64,000 nucleotides of DNA from Candidatus Woesearchaeota archaeon. GTDB lineage: Archaea > Nanobdellota > Nanobdellia > Pacearchaeales > GW2011-AR1. Below the pieces are notes generated by a model. It saw only the letters and a program-made list of their open reading frames with translations. It made no database searches and was not told where the DNA came from. The first letter of the stretch is position 1; the number at the start of each line of letters is the position of its first letter. This document shows, in pieces, positions 35,044-50,960 of the stretch. The translations under genes were made by a program, and so were the position numbers. The stretch spans positions 4,225-68,224 of the forward strand of contig CAZQLD010000003.1 in NCBI GenBank assembly GCA_964594115.1, read 5' to 3'.

Positions 35044-35736
35044 ATGCCTGGAAAAACAATTTCTGATTATGTGATTGCCTTAAGAGAAAAAGGCTTAGAA
35101 AACCTTGCAGCAGACCTGGATACAATAAAAGCAAAAGATTACCAAAGACTAAAAAACTCAGGACTCCCTGTATATGCTGATTTTTCCCTTCAATCAACAG
35201 AATTCTCAGAAAAAAACAAAAAACTAATGAAATTTTTATCTCAATATCCAAGAGTTACAATTAGGGCACTTCCTAAAACATCTGCCTTACCAAGAAGGTA
35301 TAAAATATGTGTAAGAGGTTATAAAGAGTGCTCAGAATTTTTAGAACAGGAAGTTCCTAAAAACAAAAGAGAAAAATACTCTATGCTTTTAACAGAATAT
35401 AAACCAAGTAATAGTTCAGGAATTATAATTATAAAAAAAGATATTGCAATTGCAGAAGTTGCAGAAGCAGGCCTAGCTGCTTTTTCTCATGATGAAACTC
35501 TATGTTATACAGGGATTTTCGGAATTTTTAATTATCACAAATTTAGAAAAATAAAATTCATATCTCCTAGAAAAGGAAGAATAAAAAACAAAGTAAAACA
35601 AGCAATGCACAAATCACTAATGTACATAACAAAAGCAGGACTTCCAGAACCAGAAGGGTATTTTGAATTTATTATAACTGAAGATGGAGAAATCAAATTC
35701 CTAGACTATAAAACAGCTCCATCATACCTTTCTTAA
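35044..35736 (+). CDS. Hypothetical 230-aa protein
   Basis: ORF only. Third gene of the operon divergent from the TrmB-like gene. 44-nt convergent overlap with the peptidase gene. Confidence 0.4.
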   Translation: MPGKTISDYVIALREKGLENLAADLDTIKAKDYQRLKNSGLPVYADFSLQSTEFSEKNKKLMKFLSQYPRVTIRALPKTSALPRRYKICVRGYKECSEFLEQEVPKNKREKYSMLLTEYKPSNSSGIIIIKKDIAIAEVAEAGLAAFSHDETLCYTGIFGIFNYHKFRKIKFISPRKGRIKNKVKQAMHKSLMYITKAGLPEPEGYFEFIITEDGEIKFLDYKTAPSYLS

Positions 35737-36553
35737 GAAACCACACCAAAATCAAAAAAGCTAATAAAAAACTTGGAGTAAAAGGAATCCCTTCTTTAAC
35801 CAAGACTTTCCTTCTTACTTTTTTTAGTATTTTTAACTCTTTATCAGACAAACCTTCCCAATTCGGCTTTATCCTCTTTTTCCCTACTTTAACAGGCTTA
35901 TACAACCAGTCTCCTAAAGTTAGCTCTCTTGTATGCTTGCTCCTAACCATACAACTCTCTTCTATAGCCTTAGCATAAATATAAAGAAAAGGAAAAATCA
36001 AAACTATTAAAGAAAACCATACAAATAAATACATTTCCATAAACAAAACAAAGATTAAAACCAAGGCAGCAAGAAAAATAAAAATTTTGAAAACTTTTTT
36101 GTTTTTATCAAACTGTTTAAAAAACTCTTTAATAAATTTTTTTCTGTTCTTATAAGACAGTACAAAGCTATAAGTTAATCCATAAATACTTCCAGTAAAT
36201 AGTAGTAGAATAATAAAATAAAGAAAAATCTGCAGATTTTCATACAGGAAAAAAGAAAAAGGAAGTACAGCTCCTAGCCCCATCAATAATTTAGCATCTC
36301 CTCCAGCAAAAACTCTTCCATAATAAAACAAGTTAGCAAGCAGGAAAAAAATTGCAAATCCTAATAAGCCATTAATAAAATAAAGATAATTTTCAAAAAA
36401 TACAGAAACAAAAGCCCTATAAGCTAAAGCAATAGCAATAAGTGAAAAATTCAGCCAGTTAGCAACCTCTCTTTTTCTAAAATCCTGAATAATAGCTATA
36501 ATAATCCAGATTACAGCTAAAACAATCAAAAAATAACTTTCAGCATTTATCAT
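35693..36553 (-). CDS. Prepilin/preflagellin peptidase (A24 family, PibD/FlaK-like)
   Basis: Polytopic. IIQDFRKREVANWLN (first Asp context) and FAGGDAKLLMGLG (second Asp, GxGDxK-like). Confidence 0.8.
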   Translation of the reverse strand: MINAESYFLIVLAVIWIIIAIIQDFRKREVANWLNFSLIAIALAYRAFVSVFFENYLYFINGLLGFAIFFLLANLFYYGRVFAGGDAKLLMGLGAVLPFSFFLYENLQIFLYFIILLLFTGSIYGLTYSFVLSYKNRKKFIKEFFKQFDKNKKVFKIFIFLAALVLIFVLFMEMYLFVWFSLIVLIFPFLYIYAKAIEESCMVRSKHTRELTLGDWLYKPVKVGKKRIKPNWEGLSDKELKILKKVRRKVLVKEGIPFTPSFLLAFLILVWFLKKGMMELFYSLGI

Positions 36554-36726
36554 CTTTAGGTCCCTGTTTTAGTCCTCCCTCTTCCGCCTCTTTTATAAAC
36601 TCTCTGTTTTCTCTTCCTTTTCTTGTCTTTTCTTGTCTTCCTTTTCTCAGGCATACCATACTCCATTTTCTAAGCTAAAACTCCAAGTATAAAAAAACAG
36701 GAAAAGAATTATTTAAATGTTGCTTA

Positions 36727-37080
36727 TCACTGAGGTCCAATTGGACTGCATCCCTCGAAGATATCACAAGGTTCAAGCCCCACGTCTAGTCTCTCTAGAG
36801 CTTTACAATTATATTTTGCATCTGTTTTCGGACTTTCTTCACCAAACTTCACTGGCCTCATTCTCTCACAATAATCATTCTTCATGTTTGTTGTACATGC
36901 TACCTGGCATGCCTGAACAACACTATCAATATTACTTCCGCCACCAAAGAAACCAGATATTCGCCCCCATAAATTACCCCAGCCACCTGTAAATCCCAGT
37001 ATAAGCACAACTAAAACCACTAAAGCCAACACTATAATAACAATTGTTCCTATTGTTAATTCAGCACCTTTTTTATTCAT
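36727..37080 (-). CDS. Type IV pilin-like protein, 117 aa, 6-Cys C-terminal domain (major pilin candidate)
   Basis: MNKKG|AELTIGTIVIIVLALVVLVVLILGF class III signal peptide pattern. Own cassette B promoter plus AAAGAGG Shine-Dalgarno. Paralog of 42712..43089. Confidence 0.7.
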   Translation of the reverse strand: MNKKGAELTIGTIVIIVLALVVLVVLILGFTGGWGNLWGRISGFFGGGSNIDSVVQACQVACTTNMKNDYCERMRPVKFGEESPKTDAKYNCKALERLDVGLEPCDIFEGCSPIGPQ

Positions 37081-37116
37081 TTTTTATTTACCTCTTTTAA
37101 TTTATTATAAACTTAG

Positions 37117-37174: not shown

Positions 37175-37639
37175 CTAAATCTGCTTTTCAAATTGCTCAT
37201 TATAAGTGTAAACAGCATTAAAAGTATCTGTTCTTGTGTTTAATGTAATTTTGAACTCTGCTGTCACAATATTATTTTCTGTGTCATATTCTATATGCTC
37301 CTCATCAATCTGTTGCTCTATCTGGGAAAGTTCTGAAGTAACAAACTTATTATTTATTTTATATTCAATTAAACCTTCTGAAAAATTAGCAATAAAATCT
37401 TGTTTAAAATCTTGGCTGTTTCTTGTTTTTACAACAGCCTTATTCATAATTTCATTAATATAAAAATCAAGCTTTCCTTTTGTCAAATAAACCCCATCTA
37501 TAAATCTGGAATCCACTAAATTAGCTTTTATTTTTCCCGAACTTATAATAAAGATGATGGATGCTGCTCCTGCCACTACTATCGCCATAAGAACTAATAA
37601 TGTTGCTGCAAGATCTGCTTTTTTATTTTTCATTAACAT
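37175..37639 (-). CDS. Pilin-like protein (154 aa)
   Basis: M(LM)KNKKA|DLAATLLVLMAIVVAGAASIIFII. The start overlaps the upstream stop. Confidence 0.6.
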   Translation of the reverse strand: MLMKNKKADLAATLLVLMAIVVAGAASIIFIISSGKIKANLVDSRFIDGVYLTKGKLDFYINEIMNKAVVKTRNSQDFKQDFIANFSEGLIEYKINNKFVTSELSQIEQQIDEEHIEYDTENNIVTAEFKITLNTRTDTFNAVYTYNEQFEKQI

Positions 37640-38289
37640 TCTTTTAACTGTCTATATTTAATTTCAAAAATTCTATTTTTATAAGGAATACTTATATCTG
37701 CTGTTGGAGTCCATTTCATCAACCTTTCTTCACTATTATCGAAAATATCATATCCTATAGATTTCTTAGTGTATAATCCTCCAGGCCTTATGACTCCTTG
37801 AGAAATCTGCAGATAATAATCAGGACAAAAAGAATCTAATTTTTTAGCAAGTTCTTTAGCAAACTCCCTATCCCTTCTGCCCGCCTCTACAAGTTCGTCT
37901 CTGTCAAACAGGGCTGACTCAGCCTGATTAAAGTCAATCTTCTCAAGCGAATCTGCAGAAAGATAGGTTTTAAATGCCCAATCTATTAAACTTTGGCCAT
38001 TTGGATTTTTTATTTCAAAATAATAATCTAATGAAGAAGAAATACTATCTAAAACCCTCAGTTCTTCTCCATCAACTTTCATAGGACTATTTAAATAATC
38101 TATCAAATCCCTCTGTGCATCAAAAACTTTTGAATCATACTTTAGAGGTTTTAAAACCTCAATTCCTTTTGTTTCTGCAAGAATAATTGTAGAAGATAAA
38201 AACAAAATCATGACAAAAAATATAATTAAAAATGCAATAACCCATGTGAGGGTAGCTGGTATTTGCGCTTTTTTATTCTTGTAGTTCAT
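37633..38289 (-). CDS. Pilin-like protein (218 aa)
   Basis: MNYKNKKA|QIPATLTWVIAFLIIFFVMILF. Confidence 0.6.
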   Translation of the reverse strand: MNYKNKKAQIPATLTWVIAFLIIFFVMILFLSSTIILAETKGIEVLKPLKYDSKVFDAQRDLIDYLNSPMKVDGEELRVLDSISSSLDYYFEIKNPNGQSLIDWAFKTYLSADSLEKIDFNQAESALFDRDELVEAGRRDREFAKELAKKLDSFCPDYYLQISQGVIRPGGLYTKKSIGYDIFDNSEERLMKWTPTADISIPYKNRIFEIKYRQLKEC

Positions 38290-38300: not shown

Positions 38301-38795
38301 TTAAACTTTATTTATTTCCTGATCAGATCCAGCTAAAATATTTAATTCAGCTTCTTTAACTTCTCCATTATCATAATACAAAACTCTTTCATTTTTTTCA
38401 GAACATCTTGGATAGTGTCTTGCCTTTATTGCTCCACTTATTTCACAATCTTTTTCAAAAGAAACAGCTCCTCCTATGACTTCCTCTCTCAGAAGATTGT
38501 CTCCATTATAAGCAGAGATTTTAAAATGAAAATTACTTGTTCCTTGAAAAACTTCTTTTTTCAAATTGCATTTCTCAAAAATATCAAACTCTCCATCTAA
38601 AAAATCCTGTCTTAAGTAACTATTATCAACCAAACATCTAACAATTCTTTCTGATAAAATATCTGCTTCAAACTCCTTAATATTAACATCCGCATTAAAA
38701 TAAATTAAAACCCCTATAACTACTGCCCCTCCGATGACTACTAATACAAAAATCCACCATACAGATAGTATTTTTTCTCCACCTTTTTTATTCAT
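38301..38795 (-). CDS. Pilin-like protein (164 aa)
   Basis: MNKKG|GEKILSVWWIFVLVVIGGAVVIGVLIYF. 8-nt overlap with the upstream gene. Confidence 0.55.
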   Translation of the reverse strand: MNKKGGEKILSVWWIFVLVVIGGAVVIGVLIYFNADVNIKEFEADILSERIVRCLVDNSYLRQDFLDGEFDIFEKCNLKKEVFQGTSNFHFKISAYNGDNLLREEVIGGAVSFEKDCEISGAIKARHYPRCSEKNERVLYYDNGEVKEAELNILAGSDQEINKV

Positions 38796-39189
38796 TTTTC
38801 TCCTTAATTTTTATTTCTAAATTCTCCTGAATAAATTTTACAGAAACATCATAATCTGAAAAATACTGAAAACCATGCCCTCCTTTATTAGACAAACTAA
38901 CAATAACCCTATTTTCCTCTTTATCTAAAGAAACAATATTATCTATTGCTTTTCCGTTTTCTTCTGCAAGCTCTACTGCCTTCCCCATATCTAAACCAAT
39001 AACCATATCTGGTTCTGCATTATCTATTAACAAAACAATTTGTTTTGCATACATTTCTTCATAAATAAAAGCTCCTTTTCCTGAAGTATACACAAATACT
39101 AATAAAAGAAAAATAAATACTAAATTCAAAACTATGAATATAGTTGTTTCAAGAACAATCTGATCTGCTTTTTTACATCTAATTTTCAT
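38788..39189 (-). CDS. Pilin-like protein (133 aa)
   Basis: MKIRCKKA|DQIVLETTIFIVLNLVFIFLLLVFVY. Confidence 0.6.
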   Translation of the reverse strand: MKIRCKKADQIVLETTIFIVLNLVFIFLLLVFVYTSGKGAFIYEEMYAKQIVLLIDNAEPDMVIGLDMGKAVELAEENGKAIDNIVSLDKEENRVIVSLSNKGGHGFQYFSDYDVSVKFIQENLEIKIKEKNE

Positions 39190-39197: not shown

Positions 39198-40373
39198 TTA
39201 ATCTATACTCTCAATAACAGAACAATAATGTAAAATTTCATCCTTATTATAATTAATTGTTCTTACAACAGAACATCCCTCTTTTGCCTCACTTCCATAA
39301 CTCACATCCCCGCAATAGCCTGCAGTAACAGCCCGATTTAAAGCTATATTTCCTTGTTGAACACCTAAACCAATTATAGCTGCAGCTATTACAAATTTAG
39401 CAAATGGTGTGATTGTCTTTTTTGAAACTATTTTACCTGAACCTGTTATATATTGTCCTAAAGCATTTCTCATTACAGGCATTTTAACTGTTTGTGTTGC
39501 TACAAAAGCTCCTGGTTTGTATGCTAACCCCAATCCCAAAAATGCTGCCCCTGCTTTCAATGTATCTATAAATACCTCTCCATGTCCTGGAGAACTAATT
39601 TGCATAAAAATGACAGCAAGTTCATCTCCTTGTTTATTTAACTCTATAGGATTCTCAATCTCTCTTAGTTCAAAGTCTCCTAATTGAAAATCTCCTATTT
39701 TTTCTTCCCCTTGTTCTTTTATTTCTTCTATTGTTTGTTTTGCCTCATCCTCTGTTGTTTCCTCAAACAAATCTCCTACACTAATCTTTCCTCCTTCTCC
39801 TATTAAATAATCATAATAAGTAATATCCCTATCAGCAATTTTATATCGCATCATATAATCCATAACATCAACATCTTCTAAATTAATCCCTTTTTCCCCT
39901 AAACTCTCTTTATCAAATGCTATTCTTGAGCAGATAACACAACTTGGATACACATTATCAATCCCATAATCTTCAGCAAGCCACTGGGAAAAAATACTCA
40001 CCTTTCCCTCACCCATAGTGCTCCAACAATCAATAATCTCCTGAGCAATAGCCCTATTTATTTGCTGCACATCTTTTACTTTGATTTTTGTGACACCTCC
40101 TGATTCTCCAAACTCTTCTTCACACCTTCCACCAATAAGTCCCGTAGTAATGCAAATTTTTTGTGTCTTGCATTTTAAAGGAACATAATCTTTCAAACCT
40201 CCAAAAGCAGGCAGAGTCGCCCTATAAATAACACTCTGATGACAAACCTCTCTATCAACCCTTCCTGTCCAATCTAGTCCAAAATAAACAGCTAAAAGAA
40301 TTATGACAAAACTTATTATTAGTATGACTAAAACAACTATTGTTTTTGAAGTAAGTTCAGCTCTTTTTTCCAT
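39198..40373 (-). CDS. Large pilin-like protein (391 aa)
   Basis: MEKRA|ELTSKTIVVLVILIISFVIILLAVYF. Cys-containing globular part and a late hydrophobic stretch FAKFVIAAAIIGLGV. Confidence 0.6.
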   Translation of the reverse strand: MEKRAELTSKTIVVLVILIISFVIILLAVYFGLDWTGRVDREVCHQSVIYRATLPAFGGLKDYVPLKCKTQKICITTGLIGGRCEEEFGESGGVTKIKVKDVQQINRAIAQEIIDCWSTMGEGKVSIFSQWLAEDYGIDNVYPSCVICSRIAFDKESLGEKGINLEDVDVMDYMMRYKIADRDITYYDYLIGEGGKISVGDLFEETTEDEAKQTIEEIKEQGEEKIGDFQLGDFELREIENPIELNKQGDELAVIFMQISSPGHGEVFIDTLKAGAAFLGLGLAYKPGAFVATQTVKMPVMRNALGQYITGSGKIVSKKTITPFAKFVIAAAIIGLGVQQGNIALNRAVTAGYCGDVSYGSEAKEGCSVVRTINYNKDEILHYCSVIESID

Positions 40374-40538: not shown

Positions 40539-41345
40539 TCATTTTTCCTTATATTTTAAAATAATTTCATACTGTCCTTTTCCCTGTCCACTAAGAACAG
40601 CAAGTTCATAACGCAATTCTTTCGCCTCTTCCAATGCTCTAAAACCCTCTGTTGAACGGTAGTTTCCTGCATTAAAAACATCTTGATTAGTAAGTTTTGA
40701 TTCTATTTTTAAGCTATACCACATTCTTTTTTCCTCAAAAAAAGCATCAAATATAGTTTCCAGTTCTTCTCTGTCTGTTCCAAAAACTCCAGAGGGTTTA
40801 ATCTTTGATTTAATTAATTCCAAAAATGTTTGCTCTCCTTCTTTACGCTCTAAAAGCTCTTTTAAAATTCCGGTAGGCTTATTAGCAATAATATTCACAT
40901 TTTCTCCTAACTTGCTAAAATAAATATAAAGGGGGAGATTCTCAAGATAAATGCAATCTGAATAAATCTTTTGAGAAATCACACAAACATCTTCTACTTT
41001 TACAGTTTTAACAGATTCAGAAATACCGCTCTGACAACACTTCTCGCTACTTTCTTTCAAGTAATTTTTATCACACATACATAAATTATCTTCATATGAA
41101 ATTAAAACCCAATCCTTAGGACTATTAATTAGTTCGCTACTTTCCTCATCATTTAGACTATTGACTCTAGCAACAATCTTCTCTAGAGTAGACCTTGCCT
41201 GTGCAAGTTCTGATTTTACTATAAATAAACTATAAAGGCTAACAGCTAGATAAACTAAAGCAATTATGCATAAAACAGCAATTATAAATTTCAAAGTTGT
41301 TTCTGGTAGTAATGTTATTCCTCCCTTCTTGCTTTTATTTTTCAT
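40539..41345 (-). CDS. Pilin-like protein (268 aa)
   Basis: MKNKSKKG|GITLLPETTLKFIIAVLCIIALVYLAV. 11-nt overlap with the upstream gene. Confidence 0.55.
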   Translation of the reverse strand: MKNKSKKGGITLLPETTLKFIIAVLCIIALVYLAVSLYSLFIVKSELAQARSTLEKIVARVNSLNDEESSELINSPKDWVLISYEDNLCMCDKNYLKESSEKCCQSGISESVKTVKVEDVCVISQKIYSDCIYLENLPLYIYFSKLGENVNIIANKPTGILKELLERKEGEQTFLELIKSKIKPSGVFGTDREELETIFDAFFEEKRMWYSLKIESKLTNQDVFNAGNYRSTEGFRALEEAKELRYELAVLSGQGKGQYEIILKYKEK

Positions 41346-43875: not shown

Positions 43876-44720
43876 TCTTCTAGCCAATTATCAATAACAT
43901 TAAAAACTTGTTTCATCTCTGCTTCTTCATTATAATATTTATCCATAAAATCAAGAATCTCTTCTGAATCAATTTCCATGTCATAATTTACATCTGCCTT
44001 ACTATATACTTCTGTAGCCTCACAACCAGTAACAACAACACAATCTCCTGTAAAACTTTCATAATAATTTACAGTGTTCTTTACTGAATCAATTACTTTT
44101 ACAGTATCATTAGGATTTGCTCCTGCAATTATGATTTTAATAAAACCTTCTTCTACAATAAATTGAAAAAGAGTCTTCTTAGAATCATTCCATTCTCCAA
44201 CTAAATCATAAGTTAAGTCACTTGAATAAGAATTTCCTATTATAATCATATTCTGCTTTATATCTTGAGCAGAAACTGAATAATCAGACTCATTTTTTAT
44301 ATTGTTTATTTGTAAAAATTGTGCTAATGAATCAGCAGAAACTCTTTCAGTTTCTGTCAATTTTTCTCCGAGAACAAAATGAATATTATCAGAATTATTT
44401 CTAATAAACTTAATCAAATGATAAAAACTATAACTCCCACAATCTAACTCTAACATTGTCATACTAAAATCAAACTGCTCTACATCAGGATTTACATCAA
44501 GGCCTGCTAAACAAGAACCTAAATCTGTTTCATCATATCTAAAAAATACATCTACATCTCCAGAACCTGTAACTTCTAAAATTTCTATTTCATCAAAATC
44601 ATTTAATTCATATGTCAGAATTTTTAATGCATTCACAATTCCAACCAACAACAAAAAAGCAACTGCTAATAAAAAAATCCATATTATGCTCCTTTTCCTT
44701 TTTATTTTTTGCATTTCCAT
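43872..44720 (-). CDS. Secreted/anchored protein with C-terminal dockerin- or EF-hand-like loop
   Basis: Start chosen at MEMQKIKRKRSIIWIFLLAVAFLLLVGIVNA, because the tracked start 44789 would overlap the upstream ORF by 49 nt. C-terminal DVNYDMEIDSEEILDFMDKYY. Confidence 0.5.
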   Translation of the reverse strand: MEMQKIKRKRSIIWIFLLAVAFLLLVGIVNALKILTYELNDFDEIEILEVTGSGDVDVFFRYDETDLGSCLAGLDVNPDVEQFDFSMTMLELDCGSYSFYHLIKFIRNNSDNIHFVLGEKLTETERVSADSLAQFLQINNIKNESDYSVSAQDIKQNMIIIGNSYSSDLTYDLVGEWNDSKKTLFQFIVEEGFIKIIIAGANPNDTVKVIDSVKNTVNYYESFTGDCVVVTGCEATEVYSKADVNYDMEIDSEEILDFMDKYYNEEAEMKQVFNVIDNWLED

Positions 44721-44740
44721 ATTAAATTTATTTTTTATAA

Positions 44741-46393
44741 TTACCCACACCCTTTTGGAGGATCTTTTTTCCATTTCCAGATTGAACACTGTTTATATAA
44801 TTCTACATTAACATCTGCAACCCATCTAATTCTTCTCTTTGTTTTTTCACCAGCACATTTTGCAGTAAAAGGAATTATTATCGTAGCTTCAAAATATTGC
44901 CCTCTTGTTGTCACATTTTTTGTGATTCTTGTTCTAGCCTCAGAAATATTTATTTCTCTAACGCAGCCATCTCCACAATTTAAACCCTTAAGTTGTTCTT
45001 TAAGAGCTCTTTCAGCCTTTCCTCCTGCTTTTTTTAAAGCATCTATATAAGCGAACTCCCATATAACTCCAATTTTAGTTATATGATATCCTTTAGTTAT
45101 TCCAGATAAGGAACCTGAACATGTTCCAGATAATTCTCTTTCAGGATAAATTTTAGCATCCACAACACTTACAAGATTATTTCCCTTACAACATGCTTCA
45201 GCTTGTTCTTTAGCACATGAATATTCTAAACCAAATTTTGGATTTTCATTGCATAAATCATTTGCAGCTGATGAGGCTTTCTGAACTGCCTCTCCATAAA
45301 GCTTAAACTGAGAACTGCCTTTTTTAGACATAGAAACATTTGCCGAACACTCATTATCACAAGGATCTTCTTGCTTTTTAGGAGGATAATATTCTGAGCC
45401 ATTAGTAGGGGTTATAGGCTCATCAGGAGTAATAGGTTCATAGGGTTCAGGTGTTACAGGCTCATCAGGGGTATAATCATCTGAGCCATTAGTAAGAACT
45501 GGTTCTGGAAGGGTAGGTTCTGGAAGAGTTGGTTCTGGAAGAGTAGGCTCAGGAGTATAATCATCTGAGCTGTCAGGAGGGGTTGGTTCAGGAGGAGTTG
45601 GTTCTGGAAGAGTTGGTTCTGGAAGAGTAGGCTCAGGAGTATAATCATCTGAGCTGTCAGGAGGGGTTGGTTCCGGTTCTGGCTCATTAGCTGTACAATA
45701 CGGGTTACAACGGCAACTGCAAGTATAAGCTGGACTCCCATAACTACTTGCACAATACGGGTTGCAAGTATAATCACTAGGAGTACTGCCCTGACAATTC
45801 GGTACACAAGTAAAGTACTCACAAATATAAGCTGGACTGCCTCCTCCGCAGCTTCCGCAATTTGGCACACAAGTATAATCCTCATCTGAGCTTCCAAAAA
45901 TGCCAATACTTGCCAACTCTTCATCTGAATCACTTCTTATATCCCCTATTAATGTAACATTATTATCAGGATTTTTTGCTACCCAATCTCCATCAAAAAT
46001 ATCATTATCATTTGTCTTTTTAACTACATAAGTAATGACAGCATCCTCAGCCTTTAATTCTGTAAACTCACTTCCAAGCCACTCAATAACTCCTTTATCT
46101 AACCTTGAACTAGTATTATAAACCCCTCCATGACTTACATTCTGAACTTCCCAACCCTTAGGATAGTACTCAGTAATAACAAAAGCATTTATTCTTTTGT
46201 CTTTATTAACATCCAGATTAAGGGTTATAGCGTACAGCTCTCCCTGATTATCAATACTTCTCTTGATCTCTACTATTTCTTCTCTTTTCCCTTCGATAAT
46301 TGTATTAAAAATATTATTAAGAGTTAGAACAATAATCAAAATTACTAAAACAAATAGGATTTTCGCATTAAAATCCTTCTTTTTTTCTTCCAT
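44741..46393 (-). CDS. 550-aa anchored surface protein: beta-rich domain, Cys-repeat block, PEPT-repeat linker, Cys-rich C-terminal domain
   Basis: N-terminal TM ILFVLVILIIVLTL. Repeats YTCVPNC/FTCVPNC/YTCNPYC/CRCNPYC. PEPTLPEPTLPEPTPPEPTPPDSSDDYT occurs twice. C-terminal domain with at least 12 Cys. Confidence 0.65.
   Translation of the reverse strand: MEEKKKDFNAKILFVLVILIIVLTLNNIFNTIIEGKREEIVEIKRSIDNQGELYAITLNLDVNKDKRINAFVITEYYPKGWEVQNVSHGGVYNTSSRLDKGVIEWLGSEFTELKAEDAVITYVVKKTNDNDIFDGDWVAKNPDNNVTLIGDIRSDSDEELASIGIFGSSDEDYTCVPNCGSCGGGSPAYICEYFTCVPNCQGSTPSDYTCNPYCASSYGSPAYTCSCRCNPYCTANEPEPEPTPPDSSDDYTPEPTLPEPTLPEPTPPEPTPPDSSDDYTPEPTLPEPTLPEPTLPEPVLTNGSDDYTPDEPVTPEPYEPITPDEPITPTNGSEYYPPKKQEDPCDNECSANVSMSKKGSSQFKLYGEAVQKASSAANDLCNENPKFGLEYSCAKEQAEACCKGNNLVSVVDAKIYPERELSGTCSGSLSGITKGYHITKIGVIWEFAYIDALKKAGGKAERALKEQLKGLNCGDGCVREINISEARTRITKNVTTRGQYFEATIIIPFTAKCAGEKTKRRIRWVADVNVELYKQCSIWKWKKDPPKGCG
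45521..45673 (-). repeat. In-frame tandem repeat (69 identical nt, 84-nt period) encoding the Pro/Glu/Thr linker
   Basis: 45521..45589 equals 45605..45673 by direct comparison. Shorter GGTTCTGGAAGAGT(T/A)GG sub-repeats surround it. Confidence 0.9.
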
Positions 46394-46437: not shown

Positions 46438-48591
46438 TTAACCTGCAACTCCTGCAAGCGCTACTGCTGCAAGGATAGATAAGACAATTGTAGAAATCAA
46501 AGCTGTTACTAAATAAAGTAAAGAGCCAAACTTTAGATAGTTTGCTGTGTCATACTTCTTCTTTAATTTATCTTCTCCTGCATCTACTGTTACTAGAGTT
46601 CCTGTTAAAATAAAGATTATTTCTATAATATAAATGCCAATAGCTACCTGCAAAAAGTAAGGGGAAATCATTTTTGTAACATCAAAAATTTGAGTTATTG
46701 AAGATATGCTGCCTATGCCAATATCTGTATCTGTTCCAAGAGAAGATAGTATCTGCAGCTTGTTAAGAATAAGGGTTATCATACTAGCCAATCCGACAAC
46801 AATTCCTGCTAAAAGTGGAGCTAAAAATGTCATGTTGCTCTTCATATCTGAAACAACTTCTGCCAATAAGTCTCTCAGTCTCTCATTTATCTTATGAATA
46901 TTTTTTATATACTCTGATATAGACATTAAACTTCTTGCTGCTACCTGTAACCCTCTTTTAACACTTTCAACTAAAATTCTCATGCTCATCCTTATTAAAT
47001 CAGAGGGATAATAAATAATAGCCCCTCTTTTTTCATTAAATATAGAATCTTCCAGCGACATTCCTGCCTGATGCAAATTTGTATTTACAATCCTGAAAAA
47101 ATCTTCTGTAGATGTGCCTTTTGAAGAGCCTGCAACTTTTGAAAAAGCAACTTCTGCTGGCAAACCATCCCCTATTCTGTTTCCAAGCTGAAATAACGAG
47201 CTAGTAAACTCACCCTCAAGTTTCTTGGTATTTTCCCTTGCCTTAATCAAATCTTTTGTTTTCAATGAAAAAGCTACAGAAAAAAACAAAGCTATACTTA
47301 TTGGAATAAACAAACTAAGCAACACTGCAATAGGTCCAAAAGGCCCAACCACCCCCGCACTTGTAGTTTGAAAATCAAAAATCTTTAAATTTCCAAAATA
47401 CTCTAAACCAAGCTCAGAAAAAGTATAATCTCTTTGCAAATTAAAGATTGAAGGAAAAGCAGTATACTGAAATATAAAAGGAAGGGTTCCAAGTAAAAAC
47501 AAAGGTAAGCAAATAAGAAATGCAGTAAAATAAGGCTTCTTGCTTTTATATTTATCATAAAGAGGATTTAATTCTAAGATGTTTGTTTCACCATAACCTC
47601 CTGGCCTTTTTAACATAATCTGGGTTGTTAAATAAAAAACAAGAAAAGGAATAAGCAGATTAAACAAAACAACAACATGATACCACTGAATAAGTCCTTT
47701 TAATAAAGTAGAAGCAAGAGGCAGTAATGCAAGACCAAGAGTTGGAAGGATAATTCCTAACATATATAAATTAGTTAAAGGACTCCTGATTTTTCTGCTG
47801 TATTTTAACATTCTCTCATAAACCCCGTCAAGAATTACCTGTAAAGCCCTTTCCAGAGTAGCAATTCTTCTTGCCTCATTTGGTTCATATAAACTACTCT
47901 CTATTAAGTGAAAACTCTCTATAAACTCTATACTGCTTCCTCTCCAGGTCTCAAGATACGAATCTAAACTTTCTTTAATGCTACTATACTTACCTGTCTC
48001 TACATCCCAAAAAATCTTCTTGAAATCTAAAGATAAAGGCATCTGTAGATGTTGAGAGGCAAACCTTATAGCCCTCTCTAAATTACTTGTGTGTTTCATA
48101 TAAACAACCACATAAAGTACGCAAGGCACCATCTGGCTACTAGCCTTTAATCTCCATTTATTAGCCAAGCGAGAAGGCATACTATAAAAATAATAAAATA
48201 AGAATAAAGCTACGAATAAAACTAAAAATAAGAAAAGGACTGGAAAACTCCCTGCTATAAAATAAATCCCTAAAGACAAGAATACTCCTACAAAAAAACT
48301 CAGTAATAAAGCAGCCAAAGCAAGAGTCATAACCTGGCTTGGGTTAACATCAAGATGCGCCACATCTAGCTGTTTTTGTATCTTAACCTCATCTTTTTTT
48401 GCAAGCTTTATTTTTATTAGATTTCCTAAACTAGCACACCATTTTTCATATCTTGAAAGCTCAGGCGCCATCTCTCTTTTAAATTGGAGATACTCTCTAC
48501 TAAAATCCTTTTGTTTTCCTAAAAAAGGGTCTGTATGAATCTCATTTTCTATTTTTCTAGAATATTTTTTAAAAATATCATCAACCTTCAT
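46438..48591 (-). CDS. Polytopic membrane protein, candidate pilus assembly platform (FlaJ/TadC/PilC-like by context)
   Basis: Many TM segments alternating with two soluble regions. Immediately downstream of the secretion ATPase. The ATG at 48591 is preceded by AAAGAGGTAAA; the tracked start 48618 is TTG. Confidence 0.55.
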   Translation of the reverse strand: MKVDDIFKKYSRKIENEIHTDPFLGKQKDFSREYLQFKREMAPELSRYEKWCASLGNLIKIKLAKKDEVKIQKQLDVAHLDVNPSQVMTLALAALLLSFFVGVFLSLGIYFIAGSFPVLFLFLVLFVALFLFYYFYSMPSRLANKWRLKASSQMVPCVLYVVVYMKHTSNLERAIRFASQHLQMPLSLDFKKIFWDVETGKYSSIKESLDSYLETWRGSSIEFIESFHLIESSLYEPNEARRIATLERALQVILDGVYERMLKYSRKIRSPLTNLYMLGIILPTLGLALLPLASTLLKGLIQWYHVVVLFNLLIPFLVFYLTTQIMLKRPGGYGETNILELNPLYDKYKSKKPYFTAFLICLPLFLLGTLPFIFQYTAFPSIFNLQRDYTFSELGLEYFGNLKIFDFQTTSAGVVGPFGPIAVLLSLFIPISIALFFSVAFSLKTKDLIKARENTKKLEGEFTSSLFQLGNRIGDGLPAEVAFSKVAGSSKGTSTEDFFRIVNTNLHQAGMSLEDSIFNEKRGAIIYYPSDLIRMSMRILVESVKRGLQVAARSLMSISEYIKNIHKINERLRDLLAEVVSDMKSNMTFLAPLLAGIVVGLASMITLILNKLQILSSLGTDTDIGIGSISSITQIFDVTKMISPYFLQVAIGIYIIEIIFILTGTLVTVDAGEDKLKKKYDTANYLKFGSLLYLVTALISTIVLSILAAVALAGVAG

Positions 48592-48595
48592 TTTA

Positions 48596-48648
48596 CCTCT
48601 TTTATATAAAATAAACAAAGAAAATCACTTAATAAATATTCTGTTAAT
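48596..48648 (-). repeat. 53-nt repeat, copy 2, directly abutting the platform gene start
   Basis: 52/53 identical to 43164..43216. Supplies the TATA-like TTTTATATAAAAGAGG and SD for ATG 48591. Confidence 0.85.
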
Positions 48649-48683
48649 CCTCAATACTAAATTTTTACTTTACCTTAAAACCC

Positions 48684-50960
48684 TTACATCTTCTTAATGT
48701 AATTTTTCATCCAGTCCTGGAATTCAGGGAAAACTCTTTCTGAAGTTGGCAGGCCAACTTCTTCTCGGATTTTATCAGAAATCTCATGAAAAGCATTATT
48801 AGACAGAGAGTTAAATTTAGCCTCTAATAAAATAGGAATTTTAAGCTTTTCTGATATATTGACAATTTCTTGTTTTATTCTAGCCCTTAGCATAATATTA
48901 TCATAAACAGCATCCCAATCTCCTGCCCAGCCTTTAACATTAGCTGCTATAGCTTTTATAACTTCAGAATCTCCATTAATAAGTTCAGGGGTAGCTTCTA
49001 GCTCATCTTTTTCTACATTATATCTTAATAAATCCACAAAACCCTTTTCTTCTAAAGGATCCTTGGTCCAGTGTTTTCTTACTTCTGAAAGCTGAACAGC
49101 TCTTTTCCAGGAATGTAACCCATCAGGACTTTTAACAGGATTTGTTATTAAAATTATATCTGTTGCTTTAAAACTTGTTACTGGCACTTCTAAATCATTT
49201 ACAACTCTGTCAAAAATAGCATAAGGAGAGGCTCCATGAATTGTTCCCGCTACAACATTAGCTAGCGCTCCAATCCTCATTGCCTCATAAAGTGCTTTTG
49301 CTTCTAAACTTCTGACTTCCCCAACAATCAAACAACTATCTCCTAATCTTAAACTTACTCTAATACCTTCATCTGCTGCTATTTCAGTTGTAGTTTTTAA
49401 TAAAGCAGCCCTCACCTTCATTCTCAGTATATCATAGTTTAGTTTTCTTAATGTATCTACTGGCAACTCTAAAACATCTTCTAATACAATTGTTCTGTAT
49501 TTAGGAAGAATTTCTAACATTAAAGCCCCCAACATTGAACTCTTTCCACTAGACCTTGTCCCCCCTATCAAGAGCGTTCTGCTTCCACTTATTAAAAAGG
49601 ATAATAAACCTGCAGTCAGACTATTAATCATCCTATTTTTGATAAAAAGAGGCAGTGTCCAGGGTTCTTCTCTGTGTCTTCTAAAAGCATAAGCCAAGCC
49701 TGTAGGAGAAAGAGGCTGTTGAATTATAGCAACTCTCGCCCTTATATGCCCTAACAATAAATCAGTATCAAGAACAGGGTTTGCTTCATCTAAAGGCCTT
49801 CCTGACAACATCCTGAATTTAGCAGCCCATGAATCTGCATCTTCCTGACTTGGCATAATGTTAGTGGTACACTCATCAAATTCCTGATGCCTTACAAAAA
49901 CTGGATTAAGAGTTATTGGTGAATTAAGAACAATATCCTGTATATTCTTGTCCTGTAGCAATACTTCAATTAAACCAAAACCAATTGTATGCCTAACCAA
50001 GATTGTAGCTAGCTTGTTTAACTCAGAATAAGATAATTTTATTCTCTTGTTTTTAGCTAATTCTTGCAGCAAGTCTCTGGAAACATTGAAAAATACGCTT
50101 CTTGTTCTTTCTGGATCTGTAAATTCCTCTGACTTTGGCTCATGCTCAATTAAAACATTCCTTGCTAGATTAAGAAGCAAGTGAAAATCTTCGTCTAAAG
50201 TATATTCAGGAGGCATTAAATGATAAATATACTTAGAATCATTTTTTTTCTTTAGTATTGTGACACTGCTCTTATCATAACCTGAAGCAATTTCATACTG
50301 GCTCATAATTTCTGTATCTTCTGGAAGGGTTGCTACAAGTCTTGTAAAAGTAAAATTAGGAATTGTATCAGGCCTGAAAAACTGAACATAAATTTCCCTG
50401 TCTCCTACTTTATATCCCCCAAGGTAAGGAATGGCTTGCTTTACAAGCTGAATAGCCCCTAATAACGCTAAAAATTTCTCAAGTAAACGAATAAAACTCA
50501 TCTGGTCTGCTTTTAATTGTAAGGTTATCCTATCAAAAGCAATTCTCTCATCTCTGAGAGTTCTTTTTAATTCTATATAACAAGCAATAGGATCTCTTTT
50601 CAAAAGGTCAAGAAGGTAATTCACAATACTATATCTCTTACCTACCGCCTGATTAAACATGGTTAATTTTTCTGGAGCTAAAATCCTCTCTTGTTTTGTC
50701 AGATAAGTATATAACTGAGCCACTTCCTGCAATAAAGAAATTTCAGAAAAATCATAGCAATAATTTCTCTGCTGAACAAAAACTATCTTAGCTATTTGCG
50801 GGTTTTGCATTAACAAATCAACAGTTCTTGCCATGACCTCTGGATTTTCAGCTAAATTTGGCACGCTTGGAGAACCAAGATAATTCACGTATAAAATATC
50901 CTGCCCAGCCTCTCTCTGAACCTCAAAAGCATACAAAGGAGTTCCTTTTTTAAATAACAT
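48684..50960 (-). CDS. Type II/IV secretion-family ATPase (FlaI/PilB/VirB11 superfamily), 758 aa
   Basis: Walker A GGTRSSGKSS, Asp box IVLEDVLEL, Walker B CLIVGEVRSLEA, His box AGTIHGASP. Long N-terminal domain. Confidence 0.85.
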   Translation of the reverse strand: MLFKKGTPLYAFEVQREAGQDILYVNYLGSPSVPNLAENPEVMARTVDLLMQNPQIAKIVFVQQRNYCYDFSEISLLQEVAQLYTYLTKQERILAPEKLTMFNQAVGKRYSIVNYLLDLLKRDPIACYIELKRTLRDERIAFDRITLQLKADQMSFIRLLEKFLALLGAIQLVKQAIPYLGGYKVGDREIYVQFFRPDTIPNFTFTRLVATLPEDTEIMSQYEIASGYDKSSVTILKKKNDSKYIYHLMPPEYTLDEDFHLLLNLARNVLIEHEPKSEEFTDPERTRSVFFNVSRDLLQELAKNKRIKLSYSELNKLATILVRHTIGFGLIEVLLQDKNIQDIVLNSPITLNPVFVRHQEFDECTTNIMPSQEDADSWAAKFRMLSGRPLDEANPVLDTDLLLGHIRARVAIIQQPLSPTGLAYAFRRHREEPWTLPLFIKNRMINSLTAGLLSFLISGSRTLLIGGTRSSGKSSMLGALMLEILPKYRTIVLEDVLELPVDTLRKLNYDILRMKVRAALLKTTTEIAADEGIRVSLRLGDSCLIVGEVRSLEAKALYEAMRIGALANVVAGTIHGASPYAIFDRVVNDLEVPVTSFKATDIILITNPVKSPDGLHSWKRAVQLSEVRKHWTKDPLEEKGFVDLLRYNVEKDELEATPELINGDSEVIKAIAANVKGWAGDWDAVYDNIMLRARIKQEIVNISEKLKIPILLEAKFNSLSNNAFHEISDKIREEVGLPTSERVFPEFQDWMKNYIKKM

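What the first reader, a model, noticed from the sequence alone, without database searches (positions are those of the whole stretch)
35693..50960. Fifteen co-oriented genes form a type IV filament locus with ten class-III-signal-peptide proteins and orphan C-terminal domains
Seen: the minus-strand run from 50960 to 35693 encodes, in order, a secretion ATPase (GGTRSSGKSS, IVGEVR, GTIHG), a polytopic 717-aa platform candidate, two large secreted proteins, ten pilin-like ORFs and an A24 peptidase (GGDAKLL). Each of the ten N-termini reads basic stretch, then G/A, then about 20 hydrophobic residues. They are KKG|AELTIGTIV, KKA|DLAATLLV, KKA|QIPATLTW, KKG|GEKILSVWW, KKA|DQIVLETTIF, KRA|ELTSKTIVV, KKG|GITLLPETT, RRA|DLTINKLVL, KKA|IEMEVLVWW and KDT|ELMIGTFVV. 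Several junctions overlap by 4-11 nt. Established: such N-termini are class III signal peptides cut by PibD/FlaK/EppA-type peptidases. Inference: this is one dedicated filament machine with an unusually large and size-diverse pilin set (51 to 407 aa). I could not recognise any of the globular domains. In a probably host-dependent archaeon it is a candidate attachment or uptake organelle, and the best candidate here for an undescribed system.
Basis: partly seen in the sequence, partly recalled or inferred. Interest (0 to 1): 0.72.

Follow-up and report, generated by a model that had tools for sequence, protein, structure and literature searches.

The report
DPANN archaeal type IV pilus locus
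This is a real, conserved gene cluster for a type IV pilus-like surface filament in a tiny Pacearchaeota-type archaeon; the kind of machine is known, but this version is largely invisible to standard annotation and recurs gene for gene in hundreds of uncultivated species.

Summary
Window 35693-50960 (minus strand) encodes a PilB/FlaI-type ATPase, a 717-aa polytopic protein, eleven small-to-large proteins with a basic N-terminus followed by a hydrophobic helix, and an A24 aspartic peptidase.

- The ATPase and peptidase pass Pfam thresholds.
- The 717-aa protein has no direct HMM hit. It is a divergent two-domain T2SSF platform: 13 of 37 distant family members hit Pfam T2SSF, and its model matches EpsF/OutF cytoplasmic domains.
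- Ten consecutive genes carry [KR][KR][GA] plus a hydrophobic helix. No other ORF in the window does.
- Across about 80 related species every ortholog group keeps N-K-K/R-G/A at that spot.
- The locus recurs gene for gene in at least 576 Pacearchaeota/Woesearchaeota species genomes.

- A 43-aa eleventh member was missed.
- p125 has a non-canonical site.
- A plus-strand gene interrupts the run.
- The two "large secreted proteins" are a lineage-specific insert, not part of the conserved machine.

Most likely this is an adhesive type IV filament, with the p117 family as major pilin and about eight minor pilins. It is a distinct, poorly annotated variant of a known kind, not a new category. Function is inferred, not shown.

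The parts
48684..50960 (-). Assembly ATPase (758 aa), PilB/FlaI/GspE superfamily. It has an extra N-terminal region of about 200-290 aa. Walker A GGTRSSGKSS is at residue 466, IVGEVR at 545 and GTIHG at 572.
   Evidence: Pfam T2SSE 32.4 bits, above the gathering score. NCBIfam FlaI 115 bits and TadA 108 bits, both far below their cutoffs. PDB hits: 2oap GspE2 1.4e-25, CpaF 1.9e-18, FlaI 2.8e-13. Orthologs have median 65% identity in 65 of 81 related loci.
46438..48591 (-). Membrane platform (717 aa from ATG; about 9 hydrophobic segments). It is a divergent two-domain T2SSF (PilC/TadC/FlaJ-like) protein.
   Evidence: No direct Pfam, NCBIfam or PDB sequence hit. 13 of 37 distant family members hit PF00482 T2SSF, two of them above the gathering score with two stretches each. 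The AF2 model has pLDDT 75.8. It matches EpsF, OutF and SpoIIIAB cytoplasmic domains with prob 0.97-1.0; TM(target) is 0.64-0.72 for EpsF/OutF and 0.50-0.56 for SpoIIIAB. More than 4655 close homologs were found, and 1085 clusters at 50% identity.
44741..46393 (-). 550-aa N-terminally anchored protein, Cys-rich (24 Cys), with a PEPT-repeat linker. Lineage-specific insert, not a conserved part of the machine.
   Evidence: No family hit. Found only in the identical contigs L001 and L002; absent from 81 other loci and from close relatives. An 84-nt x2.5 tandem repeat lies at 45465-45673.
43872..44774 (-). 300-aa N-terminally anchored protein (..KRKRS|IIWIFLLAVAF..). Lineage-specific insert; possibly a further class-III-like substrate with Ser at -1.
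   Evidence: Absent from all other loci.
43303..43875 (+). 190-aa lipoprotein-like gene on the opposite strand (..LVGGC NSS..). Part of the same lineage-specific insert.
   Evidence: Absent from other loci.
42712..43089 (-). p125: divergent paralog of the p117 pilin family (6 Cys). In this genome the processing site is degenerate: KKD-T instead of KKG|F.
   Evidence: BLAST and alignment with the p117 family. Ortholog consensus is DKKG|FEMAINT. It fails the strict motif.
42555..42710 (-). p51: 51-aa pilin-like protein consisting only of the hydrophobic helix plus a short tail (NKKA|IEMEVLVWW..). Flp/EpdE-like in size.
   Evidence: Orthologs occupy the same position in at least 31 loci.
41335..42558 (-). 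p407: large pilin-like protein (RRA|DLTINKLVL..). Its size varies most across species (171-605 aa). Candidate adhesin or tip subunit.
   Evidence: No family hit.
40539..41345 (-). p268: pilin-like protein (SKKG|GITLLPETTLKFIIAV..). Orthologs often have Glu at +5.
   Evidence: (Glu at +5 in 16 of 33 orthologs).
It has the same NKK[GA] motif, but charged residues precede the helix. It may be a small pilin-like subunit or a membrane accessory protein.
   Evidence: called as a gene; ortholog consensus KKA|QMEEFIKILLWII.
39198..40373 (-). p391: the most widely retained large pilin-like protein (EKRA|ELTSKTIVV..). It has 10 Cys, all invariant among homologs, and an orphan alpha/beta domain.
   Evidence: 474 homologs, none with a Pfam domain. 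10 Cys are invariant in the alignment. The AF2 model has pLDDT 68. There is no credible Foldseek match in the PDB. Orthologs are present in 64 of 81 loci.
38788..39189 (-). p133: pilin-like minor subunit candidate (CKKA|DQIVLETTIF..).
   Evidence: (62 of 81 loci).
38301..38795 (-). p164: pilin-like minor subunit candidate (NKKG|GEKILSVWWIF..). The GEK.LS.WWF motif is conserved.
   Evidence: (58 of 81 loci).
37633..38289 (-). p218: pilin-like minor subunit candidate (NKKA|QIPATLTW..). Gln at +1 in most orthologs.
37175..37639 (-). p154: pilin-like minor subunit candidate (NKKA|DLAATLLV..).
36727..37080 (-). p117: best candidate for the major pilin (NKKG|AELTIGTIVIIVLALVVLVVLILGF..). The N-terminal ~70 residues are nearly invariant, Cys residues are conserved, the C-terminus is variable, the family is often duplicated, and it has its own 94-nt upstream spacer.
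   Evidence: 99 homologs, none with a Pfam domain. Alignment A4. One or two copies occur in many loci. Gene spacing.
35693..36553 (-). Dedicated class III signal (prepilin) peptidase, A24 family, 286 aa, about 8 hydrophobic segments. Catalytic Asp motifs are IQDFRKRE (D24) and GGDAKLL (D86).
   Evidence: Pfam Peptidase_A24 48.3 bits, above the gathering score. NCBIfam FlaK 50.8 bits, below its cutoff of 330. PDB 3s0x FlaK hits at 2.5e-11 with both motifs aligned. It sits at the end of the locus in 47 of 81 loci.
51096..52394 (+). Two coiled-coil proteins (119 aa and 297 aa) transcribed divergently from the ATPase gene. Possible cytoplasmic accessory components; membership of the machine is unproven.
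   Evidence: Present in 54 and 50 of 64 loci that hold the ATPase, within 1.5 kb in 51 and 47 of them, and always on the opposite strand. No significant family hit. Caveat: the whole region is syntenic. The HIT gene beside the peptidase is also conserved in 42 loci.

Best explanation
The locus encodes a complete archaeal type IV filament (type IV pilus-like) assembly system of a Pacearchaeota/Woesearchaeota-type DPANN archaeon.

Proposed mechanism:
1. Eleven proteins are made with a short basic leader ending in N-K-K/R-G/A.
2. The locus-encoded A24 aspartic peptidase (35693-36553) cuts after the G/A. This leaves a hydrophobic N-terminal helix of about 20-25 residues in the membrane.
3. The hexameric PilB/FlaI-type ATPase (48684-50960) drives the two-domain T2SSF platform (46438-48591). 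The platform lifts processed subunits out of the membrane and stacks them into a helical fibre.
4. The small p117 family (36727-37080; paralog p125) is the major subunit. Its helix is extremely conserved and its Cys-stabilised head is variable.
5. The single-copy, order-conserved proteins p51, p407, p268, p391, p133, p164, p218 and p154 (and perhaps p43) are minor pilins. They prime assembly and form a tip or decoration complex. The large orphan domains of p391 and p407 are the likely adhesins.
6. The most likely role is attachment to a host cell or a surface.

What is shown: gene content, homology of the three core enzymes, the conserved processing motif, and gene-for-gene conservation. What is inferred: cleavage, filament formation, the major/minor roles, and the adhesion function.
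For: **Core enzymes**
- ATPase: Pfam T2SSE above the gathering score; PDB GspE2, CpaF and FlaI at 1e-25 to 1e-13.
- Peptidase: Pfam A24 above the gathering score; FlaK 3s0x aligned through both catalytic Asp motifs.
- Platform: 13 of 37 distant members of the same ~700-aa family hit Pfam T2SSF. P0169 scores 40.5 bits and P0242 30.4 bits, each with two stretches.
- Platform fold: the AF2 model matches EpsF, OutF and SpoIIIAB domains with prob 0.97-1.0; TM(target) is 0.64-0.72 for EpsF/OutF and 0.50-0.56 for SpoIIIAB.
- Platform duplication: the N- and C-halves align colinearly at E = 0.005.

**Substrates**
- 10 of 280 ORFs in the window carry [KR][KR][GA] plus a hydrophobic helix, and all 10 are adjacent.
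- In about 80 species every one of the 11 ortholog groups keeps N-K-K/R-G/A immediately before the helix. This matches known archaeal sites such as KG|Q, KA|I and RA|L (PMC4371748).

**One unit**
- The order ATPase, platform, p51, p407, p268, p43, p391, p133, p164, p218, p154, p117, peptidase recurs in related loci.
- At least 576 GTDB species genomes carry the platform.

**Rates typical of machine versus surface parts** (median identity)
- ATPase 65%, platform 62%, peptidase 47%, pilin-like proteins 29-44%.

**Major pilin candidate**
- The p117 family has a nearly invariant N-terminal ~70 residues, invariant Cys residues and a variable C-terminus, and is often duplicated.
Against: - None of the 11 proteins matches any pilin or archaellin model in Pfam or NCBIfam, nor any solved pilin.
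- FlaFind and PilFind could not be run. Several sites have Glu, Gly or Pro just after the predicted cut, which a strict rule-based predictor may reject.
- p125 has Asp/Thr where Gly is expected.
- p43 has charged residues before its helix.
- p391 has two further hydrophobic helices, so it could be a membrane component rather than a fibre subunit.
- The window's own platform gives no direct T2SSF hit.
- In 27 of 64 related loci the platform gene is inverted, so the locus is not always one operon.
- No filament has been tied to these lineages. One paper states that T4P components are missing in DPANN (bioRxiv 10.1101/2020.05.14.094862).
- The major/minor assignment and the adhesion role have no direct evidence.
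Confidence: 0.75

Rival explanations
1. The same core machine builds a short pseudopilus or surface-anchored assembly rather than a long adhesive pilus. This would resemble the Sulfolobus bindosome or a type II secretion piston. The large class-III proteins would then be displayed or pushed through the envelope for nutrient capture or protein export.
For: - Most of the 11 proteins are large, single-copy and order-conserved, like T2SS pseudopilins or bindosome subunits.
- The ATPase gives a weak BasE match of 60 bits.
- Bindosome-type use of TFF machines is proposed to be widespread in archaea (bioRxiv 10.64898/2026.04.22.720090).
- In this genome, lineage-specific anchored proteins (p550, p300) are inserted inside the locus.
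Against: - No substrate-binding-protein domain or ABC transporter is a conserved part of the locus. The ABC genes in L003 are a one-off insert.
- BasE scores 60 bits against a cutoff of 1000.
- Foldseek hits of p391 to binding proteins have prob <=0.03.
- A p117-type small subunit with an invariant helix fits a polymerising major pilin.
Confidence: 0.13
2. The filament is a competence-type pilus used to capture extracellular DNA as a nucleotide source for a biosynthetically poor symbiont.
For: - Type IV filaments do this in bacteria, and it has been suggested for ultra-small cells (PMC9938205).
- The organism is a reduced DPANN archaeon: only housekeeping genes were seen in the window.
Against: - No ComEC-like channel, DNA-binding pilin or nuclease was found in or next to the locus among the ORFs scanned.
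- There is no second (retraction) ATPase in the locus.
- Nothing in the sequences points to DNA binding.
Confidence: 0.07
3. It is an archaellum (motility) locus, as the KEGG-style flaI/flaJ/flaK annotations of Woesearchaeota imply.
For: - The best NCBIfam names are FlaI (115 bits) and FlaK (50.8 bits).
- Published annotations list flaI/J/K as 'flagellar motility' genes (PMC11606122, PMC5994134).
Against: - Both scores are far below the equivalog cutoffs of 550 and 330.
- No protein in the locus hits the archaellin family, FlaH, FlaF or FlaG at E<=0.1.
- All seven archaellum components are required in known archaella (PMC4858521).
Confidence: 0.03
4. The small proteins are ordinary N-terminally anchored membrane proteins that happen to be syntenic with an ATPase and a peptidase. 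There is no common machine.
For: - The whole chromosomal region is syntenic in these lineages. Unrelated neighbours are also conserved: a HIT gene in 42 loci and the 4-TM paralogs in 36-45 loci.
Against: - An identical N-K-K/R-G/A site sits directly in front of the helix in all 11 groups across about 80 species.
- That motif occurs nowhere else in the window.
- The proteins are co-located between a T2SSF/ATPase pair and an A24 peptidase, whose only known substrates have exactly this signal.
Confidence: 0.02

Closest known systems
Epd pilus of Methanococcus maripaludis (archaeal T4P clade 1 / TFF 'system 1')
   Same: - A multi-gene locus with a dedicated prepilin peptidase and at least 5 minor pilin-like genes.
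- Very small pilins without a globular head (about 70 aa, compare p51).
- Gln at +1 in several substrates (p117, p218, p43).
- Complexity comparable to bacterial systems (PMC4858521, PMC4371748).
- System 1 is reported in some DPANN (bioRxiv 10.64898/2026.04.22.720090).
   Different: - There is one fused 717-aa platform gene instead of two tadC-like genes.
- ATPase and platform sit in the same locus as the pilins.
- No MinD/FleN gene is present.
- No hit to the Pfam class III signal/DUF361 family.
- +1 is not restricted to Gln.
- The peptidase's nearest model is FlaK rather than a recognisable EppA.
- ATPase clade membership could not be tested here.
Aap and Ups pili of Sulfolobales; PilA pili of Haloferax
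   Same: The same core: ATPase, T2SSF platform and class III pilins processed by an A24 peptidase. Sites are of the [KR][GA]| type (PMC4371748).
   Different: Those loci have only 1-2 pilin genes next to the ATPase/platform pair and use a general, unlinked peptidase (PibD). Here there are 11 linked substrates and a linked peptidase. No sequence similarity of the pilins was detected.
Bacterial T4aP and T2SS minor-pilin sets (FimU-PilVWXE, GspHIJK) and Tad/Flp pili
   Same: - Single-copy, order-conserved minor pilins beside one conserved major pilin.
- A disulfide-stabilised variable head (p117).
- The ATPase is as close to CpaF/TadA as to FlaI.
- p51 is Flp-like in size.
   Different: - No secretin, alignment complex or retraction ATPase.
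- Archaeal-type leader, without the G|F(T/S)L(I/L)E consensus.
- About twice as many minor-pilin candidates.
- TadA model scores 108 bits against a cutoff of 373.
Archaellum
   Same: The ATPase and peptidase are named FlaI and FlaK by the nearest NCBIfam models.
   Different: Scores are far below the cutoffs. No archaellin, FlaH, FlaF or FlaG is in the locus.
DPANN 'dark matter' T4P islands (Makarova, Wolf and Koonin 2019, PMC6393860, Fig. 2A) and nanoarchaeal clade 4F ATPases with unidentified pilins (PMC4858521)
   Same: A DPANN locus with a FlaI-like ATPase, TadC and neighbouring signal-peptide proteins that lack detectable similarity to known pilins. It was read as a T4P system.
   Different: That work gives one example figure and one sentence. 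I could not verify that it is this locus. It does not describe the conserved 11-member set, the shared NKK[GA] site, the linked peptidase, or the distribution across hundreds of Pace/Woesearchaeota species.

Membership tests
Type IV filament (TFF) superfamily | PilB/GspE/FlaI-type secretion ATPase with Walker A, Walker B (GE.R) and His box | tested here: met
   Pfam T2SSE 32.4 bits, above the 24.9 cutoff. PDB hits GspE2, CpaF and FlaI. Motifs at residues 466, 545 and 572.
Type IV filament (TFF) superfamily | Polytopic platform protein with T2SSF (PilC/GspF/TadC/FlaJ) domains encoded next to the ATPase | tested here: met
   The evidence is indirect. The window protein itself gives no hit.
- 13 of 37 members of the same full-length family hit PF00482. 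Two are above the gathering score, each with two stretches.
- The model matches EpsF and OutF domains with prob 0.97-0.99 and TM(target) 0.64-0.72.
- The gene is adjacent to the ATPase in 65 of 81 loci.
Type IV filament (TFF) superfamily | A24 aspartic prepilin/class III signal peptidase with two catalytic Asp residues | tested here: met
   Pfam A24 48.3 bits, above the 26.5 cutoff. Alignment to FlaK 3s0x covers the D...GxGD motifs.
Type IV filament (TFF) superfamily | Subunits with a class III signal: short basic leader, G/A at -1, then a hydrophobic helix of about 20 residues | tested here: met
   10 of 11 proteins pass a strict motif that no other ORF in the window passes. N-K-K/R-G/A is conserved in all 11 ortholog groups. 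p125 of this genome fails. FlaFind itself was not run.
Type IV filament (TFF) superfamily | Leader actually cleaved and subunits polymerised into a fibre | not testable with these tools
   This needs N-terminal proteomics, in vitro cleavage, or cryo-ET/cryo-EM.
Archaellum | FlaI equivalog, archaellins, and FlaH, FlaF, FlaG, FlaJ all present | tested here: not met
   FlaI model scores 115 bits against a cutoff of 550. No archaellin, FlaH, FlaF or FlaG hit in the locus at E<=0.1.
Epd pilus / clade 1 (system 1) | Two tadC-like platform genes | tested here: not met
   There is a single 717-aa gene with two T2SSF-type halves.
Epd pilus / clade 1 (system 1) | EppA-type substrates with conserved Gln at +1 and Glu at +5 (DUF361/class III signal family) | tested here: not met
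   No Pfam class III signal hit at E<=0.1. +1 is Q, E, D, G, F, I or A depending on the group. +5 Glu is frequent only in p268 and p133.
Epd pilus / clade 1 (system 1) | ATPase falls in clade 1 of the archaeal secretion ATPase tree; peptidase is the 9-TM EppA form (arCOG02300) | not testable with these tools
   No arCOG profiles or reference EpdL/EppA sequences were available. The peptidase has about 8 hydrophobic segments, and its nearest model is FlaK.
Bindosome (Bas) system | BasE/BasF core plus class III substrate-binding proteins linked to ABC transporters | tested here: not met
   BasE model scores 60 bits against a cutoff of 1000. No SBP domain in any of the 11 proteins. No conserved ABC transporter.
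Bacterial Tad/Flp pilus | TadA/CpaF ATPase, TadB + TadC, Flp pilin, TadV peptidase | tested here: not met
   TadA model scores 108 bits against a cutoff of 373. No Flp family hit. The platform is one fused archaeal-type protein.

The most novel reading that the evidence does not exclude
This locus is the near-universal host-contact organelle of the Pacearchaeota/Woesearchaeota radiation. It would be a heteropolymeric type IV filament built from about eleven dedicated class III subunits with structurally orphan heads (p391, p407 and others). Its fast-evolving tip proteins would set host specificity. Standard HMMs miss its platform and pilins, which would explain why these lineages have been described as lacking type IV pili.
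Probability: 0.3. Interest if true: 0.75.

Novelty: new variant of a known kind. Interest (0 to 1): 0.5.

Why it matters
Pacearchaeota and Woesearchaeota are among the most abundant uncultivated archaea in groundwater and sediments. They are thought to live attached to hosts, but nobody knows how they attach.

This locus gives a concrete, conserved candidate machine with defined parts:
- a processing motif, NKK[G/A]|;
- a likely major pilin, the p117 family;
- large orphan surface domains.

These parts can be searched for in metaproteomes, tagged in cryo-ET, or expressed heterologously.

It also corrects annotation. The 717-aa platform and all the pilin-like genes are 'hypothetical' in public records, and the core genes are mislabelled as flagellar. 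At least one paper used the supposed absence of type IV pili in DPANN to assign piliated ultra-small cells to CPR bacteria (bioRxiv 10.1101/2020.05.14.094862).

Tried and rejected
- **Direct HMM or sequence identification of the platform.** Pfam, NCBIfam, PDB phmmer, and PDB profile searches with A1 and A2 gave nothing significant. The best was EpsF at E = 0.92. The question was settled only through distant family members and fold.
- **Internal duplication of the platform.** The shallow alignment A1 showed none. The diverse alignment A2 gave only E = 0.005, which is weak support.
- **Family searches for the pilin-like proteins.** Pfam and NCBIfam were run on the pilin-like proteins (NCBIfam not on p51/p43-sized gaps only: all but none were covered by Pfam), and a PDB profile search was run on the p117 family. 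No hits.
- **Fold of p391.** The model has moderate confidence (pLDDT 68). Foldseek against the PDB gave only noise, with prob <=0.16. The fold remains orphan, and no function could be read from it.
- **The ~165-aa ORFs upstream of the ATPase in related loci.** My loose filter flagged them as class-III-like. Inspection showed they are 4-TM membrane proteins, not pilins.
- **Genomic context of the most distant platform relatives** (P0169, P0242, P0261). The contigs were too short to be informative.
- **Archaellum and bindosome readings.** Both were rejected on failed defining features.
- **Placement in the published archaeal TFF scheme** (clades 1-4, systems 1/2/4A-I). This could not be done: no arCOG profiles or reference sequences were available.
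- **FlaFind and PilFind** were not available.
- **The sigma-70 promoter/terminator scan** was not used because it does not apply to archaea.

Full report

Yes. The ORF list shows, on the minus strand:
- a 758-aa ORF at 48684-50960;
- a 726/717-aa ORF at 46438-48618 (ATG start at 48591);
- ORFs of 550 aa and 305/300 aa;
- ORFs of 125, 58/51, 407, 268, 43, 391, 133, 164, 218, 154 and 117 aa;
- a 286-aa ORF at 35693-36553.

The same gene calls appear on identical public metagenome contigs. The quoted motifs sit at residues 466, 545 and 572 of the ATPase and at residues 22 and 84 of the peptidase. Neighbouring genes overlap by 4-11 nt or are a few bases apart.

A strict scan gives a clean statistic. 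Of 280 six-frame ORFs of at least 35 aa in the 64-kb window, exactly ten have [KR][KR][GA] in the first 20 residues followed by a strongly hydrophobic 16-mer. All ten are consecutive genes at 36727-42731. Chance does not produce that.

Four corrections apply:
- p125 reads KKD-T-E where its orthologs read KKG|FE, so its site is degenerate.
- A plus-strand 190-aa lipoprotein-like gene at 43303-43875 interrupts the run.
- With p43 there are 16 co-oriented ORFs.

**2. The three core enzymes**

*ATPase.* It passes Pfam T2SSE (32.4 bits against 24.9). It matches the solved GspE2 of Archaeoglobus (1.4e-25), CpaF and FlaI. The NCBIfam models for FlaI, TadA and BasE match only far below their cutoffs. 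It is therefore a secretion ATPase of this superfamily but not an equivalog of any named one. It is about 250 aa longer than FlaI, mostly at the N-terminus.

*Peptidase.* It passes Pfam Peptidase_A24 (48.3 bits against 26.5). It aligns to the FlaK structure 3s0x through both catalytic aspartate motifs.

It has no hit in Pfam, NCBIfam or PDB sequences, even as a profile. Three lines of evidence resolve it:
- It belongs to a very large family of proteins of about 700 aa: more than 4655 close homologs and 1085 clusters at 50% identity. Of 37 diverse members, 13 hit Pfam T2SSF. P0169 (40.5 bits) and P0242 (30.4 bits) are above the gathering score with two stretches each.
- Its AlphaFold model (pLDDT 75.8, pTM 0.72) retrieves the cytoplasmic domains of EpsF and OutF and the GspF-like SpoIIIAB with Foldseek probabilities of 0.97-1.0. 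Target TM-scores are 0.64-0.72 for EpsF/OutF and 0.50-0.56 for SpoIIIAB. The E-values themselves are weak because a 717-aa query was compared with 110-aa domains.
- Its two halves align colinearly at E = 0.005, as expected for a two-domain T2SSF protein. This is weak support.

It is a divergent PilC/TadC/FlaJ-type platform whose Pacearchaeal branch has drifted below Pfam's reach.

**3. The pilin-like set**

BLAST mapping of all ORFs shows one gene order recurring: ATPase, platform, [p125], p51, [p407], p268, p43, p391, p133, p164, p218, p154, p117 (one or two copies), A24 peptidase.

A relative whose platform is 68% identical matches gene for gene.

Median identities to the window proteins are:

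| Protein | Median identity |
|---|---|
| ATPase | 65% |
| Platform | 62% |
| Peptidase | 47% |
| Pilin-like proteins | 29-44% |

This is the usual contrast between cytoplasmic or membrane motor parts and exposed subunits.

I aligned the N-termini of each ortholog group on the last [KR][GAS] before the helix. All eleven groups, including p43 and p268, show the same N-K-K/R-G/A site directly in front of the hydrophobic segment. This fits experimentally supported archaeal processing sites such as KG|Q, KA|I and RA|L (PMC4371748). A shared, conserved site next to a locus-encoded A24 peptidase is stronger evidence for class III processing than a predictor score. Even so, FlaFind was not run and cleavage is not shown.

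**4. Which subunit does what (inference)**

*p117 family.* There are 99 homologs and none has a Pfam domain. The N-terminal ~70 residues are nearly invariant: MNKKG|AEMTIGTIVIIVLALIVLVVLVVGFTGGWGNLWGRIS.FFGGG.NVDSVVQAC.VAC. Five Cys are invariant and a sixth nearly so, the C-terminus is variable and sometimes extended, and the gene is often duplicated. It also has its own upstream spacer. That is the signature of a major pilin. p125 is a divergent paralog.

*The other members.* They are single-copy and order-conserved, like bacterial minor pilins that prime assembly and cap the fibre.
- p51 is just a helix with a short tail, comparable in size to Flp or EpdE. It is an alternative major-subunit candidate.
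- p391 is the most widely retained large member (64 of 81 loci) and all 10 of its Cys are invariant among homologs. Its model shows the N-terminal helix plus an alpha/beta domain, with moderate confidence. It has no credible PDB neighbour.
- p391 also has two internal hydrophobic helices, so a membrane-embedded role cannot be excluded.

**5. What is not part of the machine**

The 550-aa and 300-aa anchored proteins and the plus-strand 190-aa gene occur only on contigs identical to the window. They are missing from relatives whose platform is 79-81% identical and from all 81 other loci. They are a recent insert between the platform gene and p125. They may be lineage-specific surface proteins. 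p300 has a KRKRS|IIW... start that could be a class-III-like site.

**6. Surroundings**

The window is chromosomal archaeal DNA. It carries intron-containing tRNAs and genes for TFIIB, S3Ae, eIF2alpha, RadA, SRP54 and FtsY. GC content is about 32%.

Two coiled-coil genes (51096-52394, plus strand) lie divergent to the ATPase in about 50 of 64 loci. Three paralogous 4-TM proteins (53789-55455) are also usually nearby. They could be accessory parts. However, an unrelated HIT gene beside the peptidase is equally conserved, so synteny alone proves nothing.

In 27 of 64 loci the platform gene alone is inverted in place. The locus is therefore not always a single operon.

**7. Comparison with known systems**

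The defining features of the type IV filament superfamily are met: ATPase, T2SSF platform, A24 peptidase and class III subunits.

- *Archaellum.* It is not one. The FlaI model scores 115 bits against 550, and there is no archaellin, FlaH, FlaF or FlaG.
- *Bindosome.* It is not one. BasE scores 60 bits against 1000, and there are no binding-protein domains.
- *Epd/clade 1 pilus.* In architecture this is the closest system: a dedicated peptidase, at least 5 minor pilins and tiny head-less pilins (PMC4858521). The window locus differs in having one fused platform gene, no MinD, no DUF361-type signal and a variable +1 residue. Whether the ATPase belongs to clade 1, 4F or a new clade could not be tested here.

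**8. Novelty**

The kind is known. Parts of this system have been noticed before:
- Woesearchaeotal flaI/flaJ/flaK have been annotated as motility or adhesion genes (PMC5994134, PMC11606122).
- A DPANN 'dark matter' island with FlaI/TadC and signal-peptide proteins was interpreted as pilins (PMC6393860).
- A 2026 census of archaeal TFF systems mentions DPANN only in passing (bioRxiv 10.64898/2026.04.22.720090).

In the searchable library I found no description of this conserved eleven-member set, its shared site, its linked peptidase or its breadth. One paper even states that T4P components are missing in DPANN (bioRxiv 10.1101/2020.05.14.094862).

I therefore rate it a new variant of a known kind, of moderate interest (0.5). 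It is solid, widespread, poorly annotated, and a good handle on how these archaea might contact hosts. It would not be a surprise to a specialist, and its function remains inferred.

Noticed in passing
window 43303-46393: A lineage-specific insert lies inside the locus. It holds a 550-aa Cys-rich anchored protein with an 84-nt x2.5 tandem repeat (45465-45673) encoding PEPT-rich linkers, a 300-aa anchored protein, and an opposite-strand 190-aa lipoprotein-like gene. All three are absent from relatives whose platform is 79-81% identical.
   Followed up: partly
L010, L011, L015, L023 and about 23 other related loci (platform at 10001-12150 of each): In 27 of 64 related species the platform gene alone is inverted in place between the ATPase gene and the pilin genes. 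Gene order is otherwise unchanged. By the record titles these loci are mostly named Woesearchaeota.
   Followed up: partly
window 53789-54289 (+), 54304-54852 (-), 54946-55455 (-): Three paralogous membrane proteins of about 165-180 aa with 4 TM segments and no family hit. They share an N-terminal motif (..FxxFLLVFxxVFAIL.KTK.LGE..). They are conserved near the ATPase gene in 36-45 related loci. My loose filter first mistook them for pilins.
   Followed up: partly
window 51096-51455 (+) and 51501-52394 (+): A pair of coiled-coil protein genes (119 aa and 297 aa; the second has a P/E/Q-rich linker and a Lys-rich tail). They are always divergent from the ATPase gene and within 1.5 kb of it in about 50 of 64 loci. 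No family hit. They are possible cytoplasmic accessory parts.
   Followed up: partly
window 5416-13096 (-): Two large ORFs without any Pfam hit. One is a 1914-aa protein with a Sec-type signal and 30 Cys. The other, just upstream, is a 647-aa protein whose N-terminus (..ESKRS|QVTVFVIIAILIVASVVAYVLL) looks like a class III signal with a long leader. It could be a further substrate of the peptidase, encoded 24 kb from the locus.
   Followed up: no
window 13694-13826, 22093-22194, 29365-29465: Three tRNA genes found by the Rfam scan but not by ARAGORN. Each is 100-133 nt long, consistent with archaeal tRNA introns.
   Followed up: no
window 52397-53611 (-): A 404-aa protein whose C-terminal third matches GH130 (mannooligosaccharide phosphorylase) and whose N-terminal ~280 aa has no hit. 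It sits between the coiled-coil pair and the 4-TM paralogs. It was found at that position in only one other locus.
   Followed up: no
L066 (DATJPO010000041.1) and L069 (JAUUWR010000013.1): Contigs carrying this archaeal locus (platform 59-64% identical) are filed in public MAGs named 'Candidatus Omnitrophota bacterium' and 'bacterium'. They are probably mis-binned DPANN contigs.
   Followed up: no
L003 7378-9826: In one relative an ABC transporter pair (ATPase plus ABC-2 permease) and a 58-aa gene are inserted between the ATPase and platform genes. This shows that the ATPase-platform junction also tolerates insertions.
   Followed up: no
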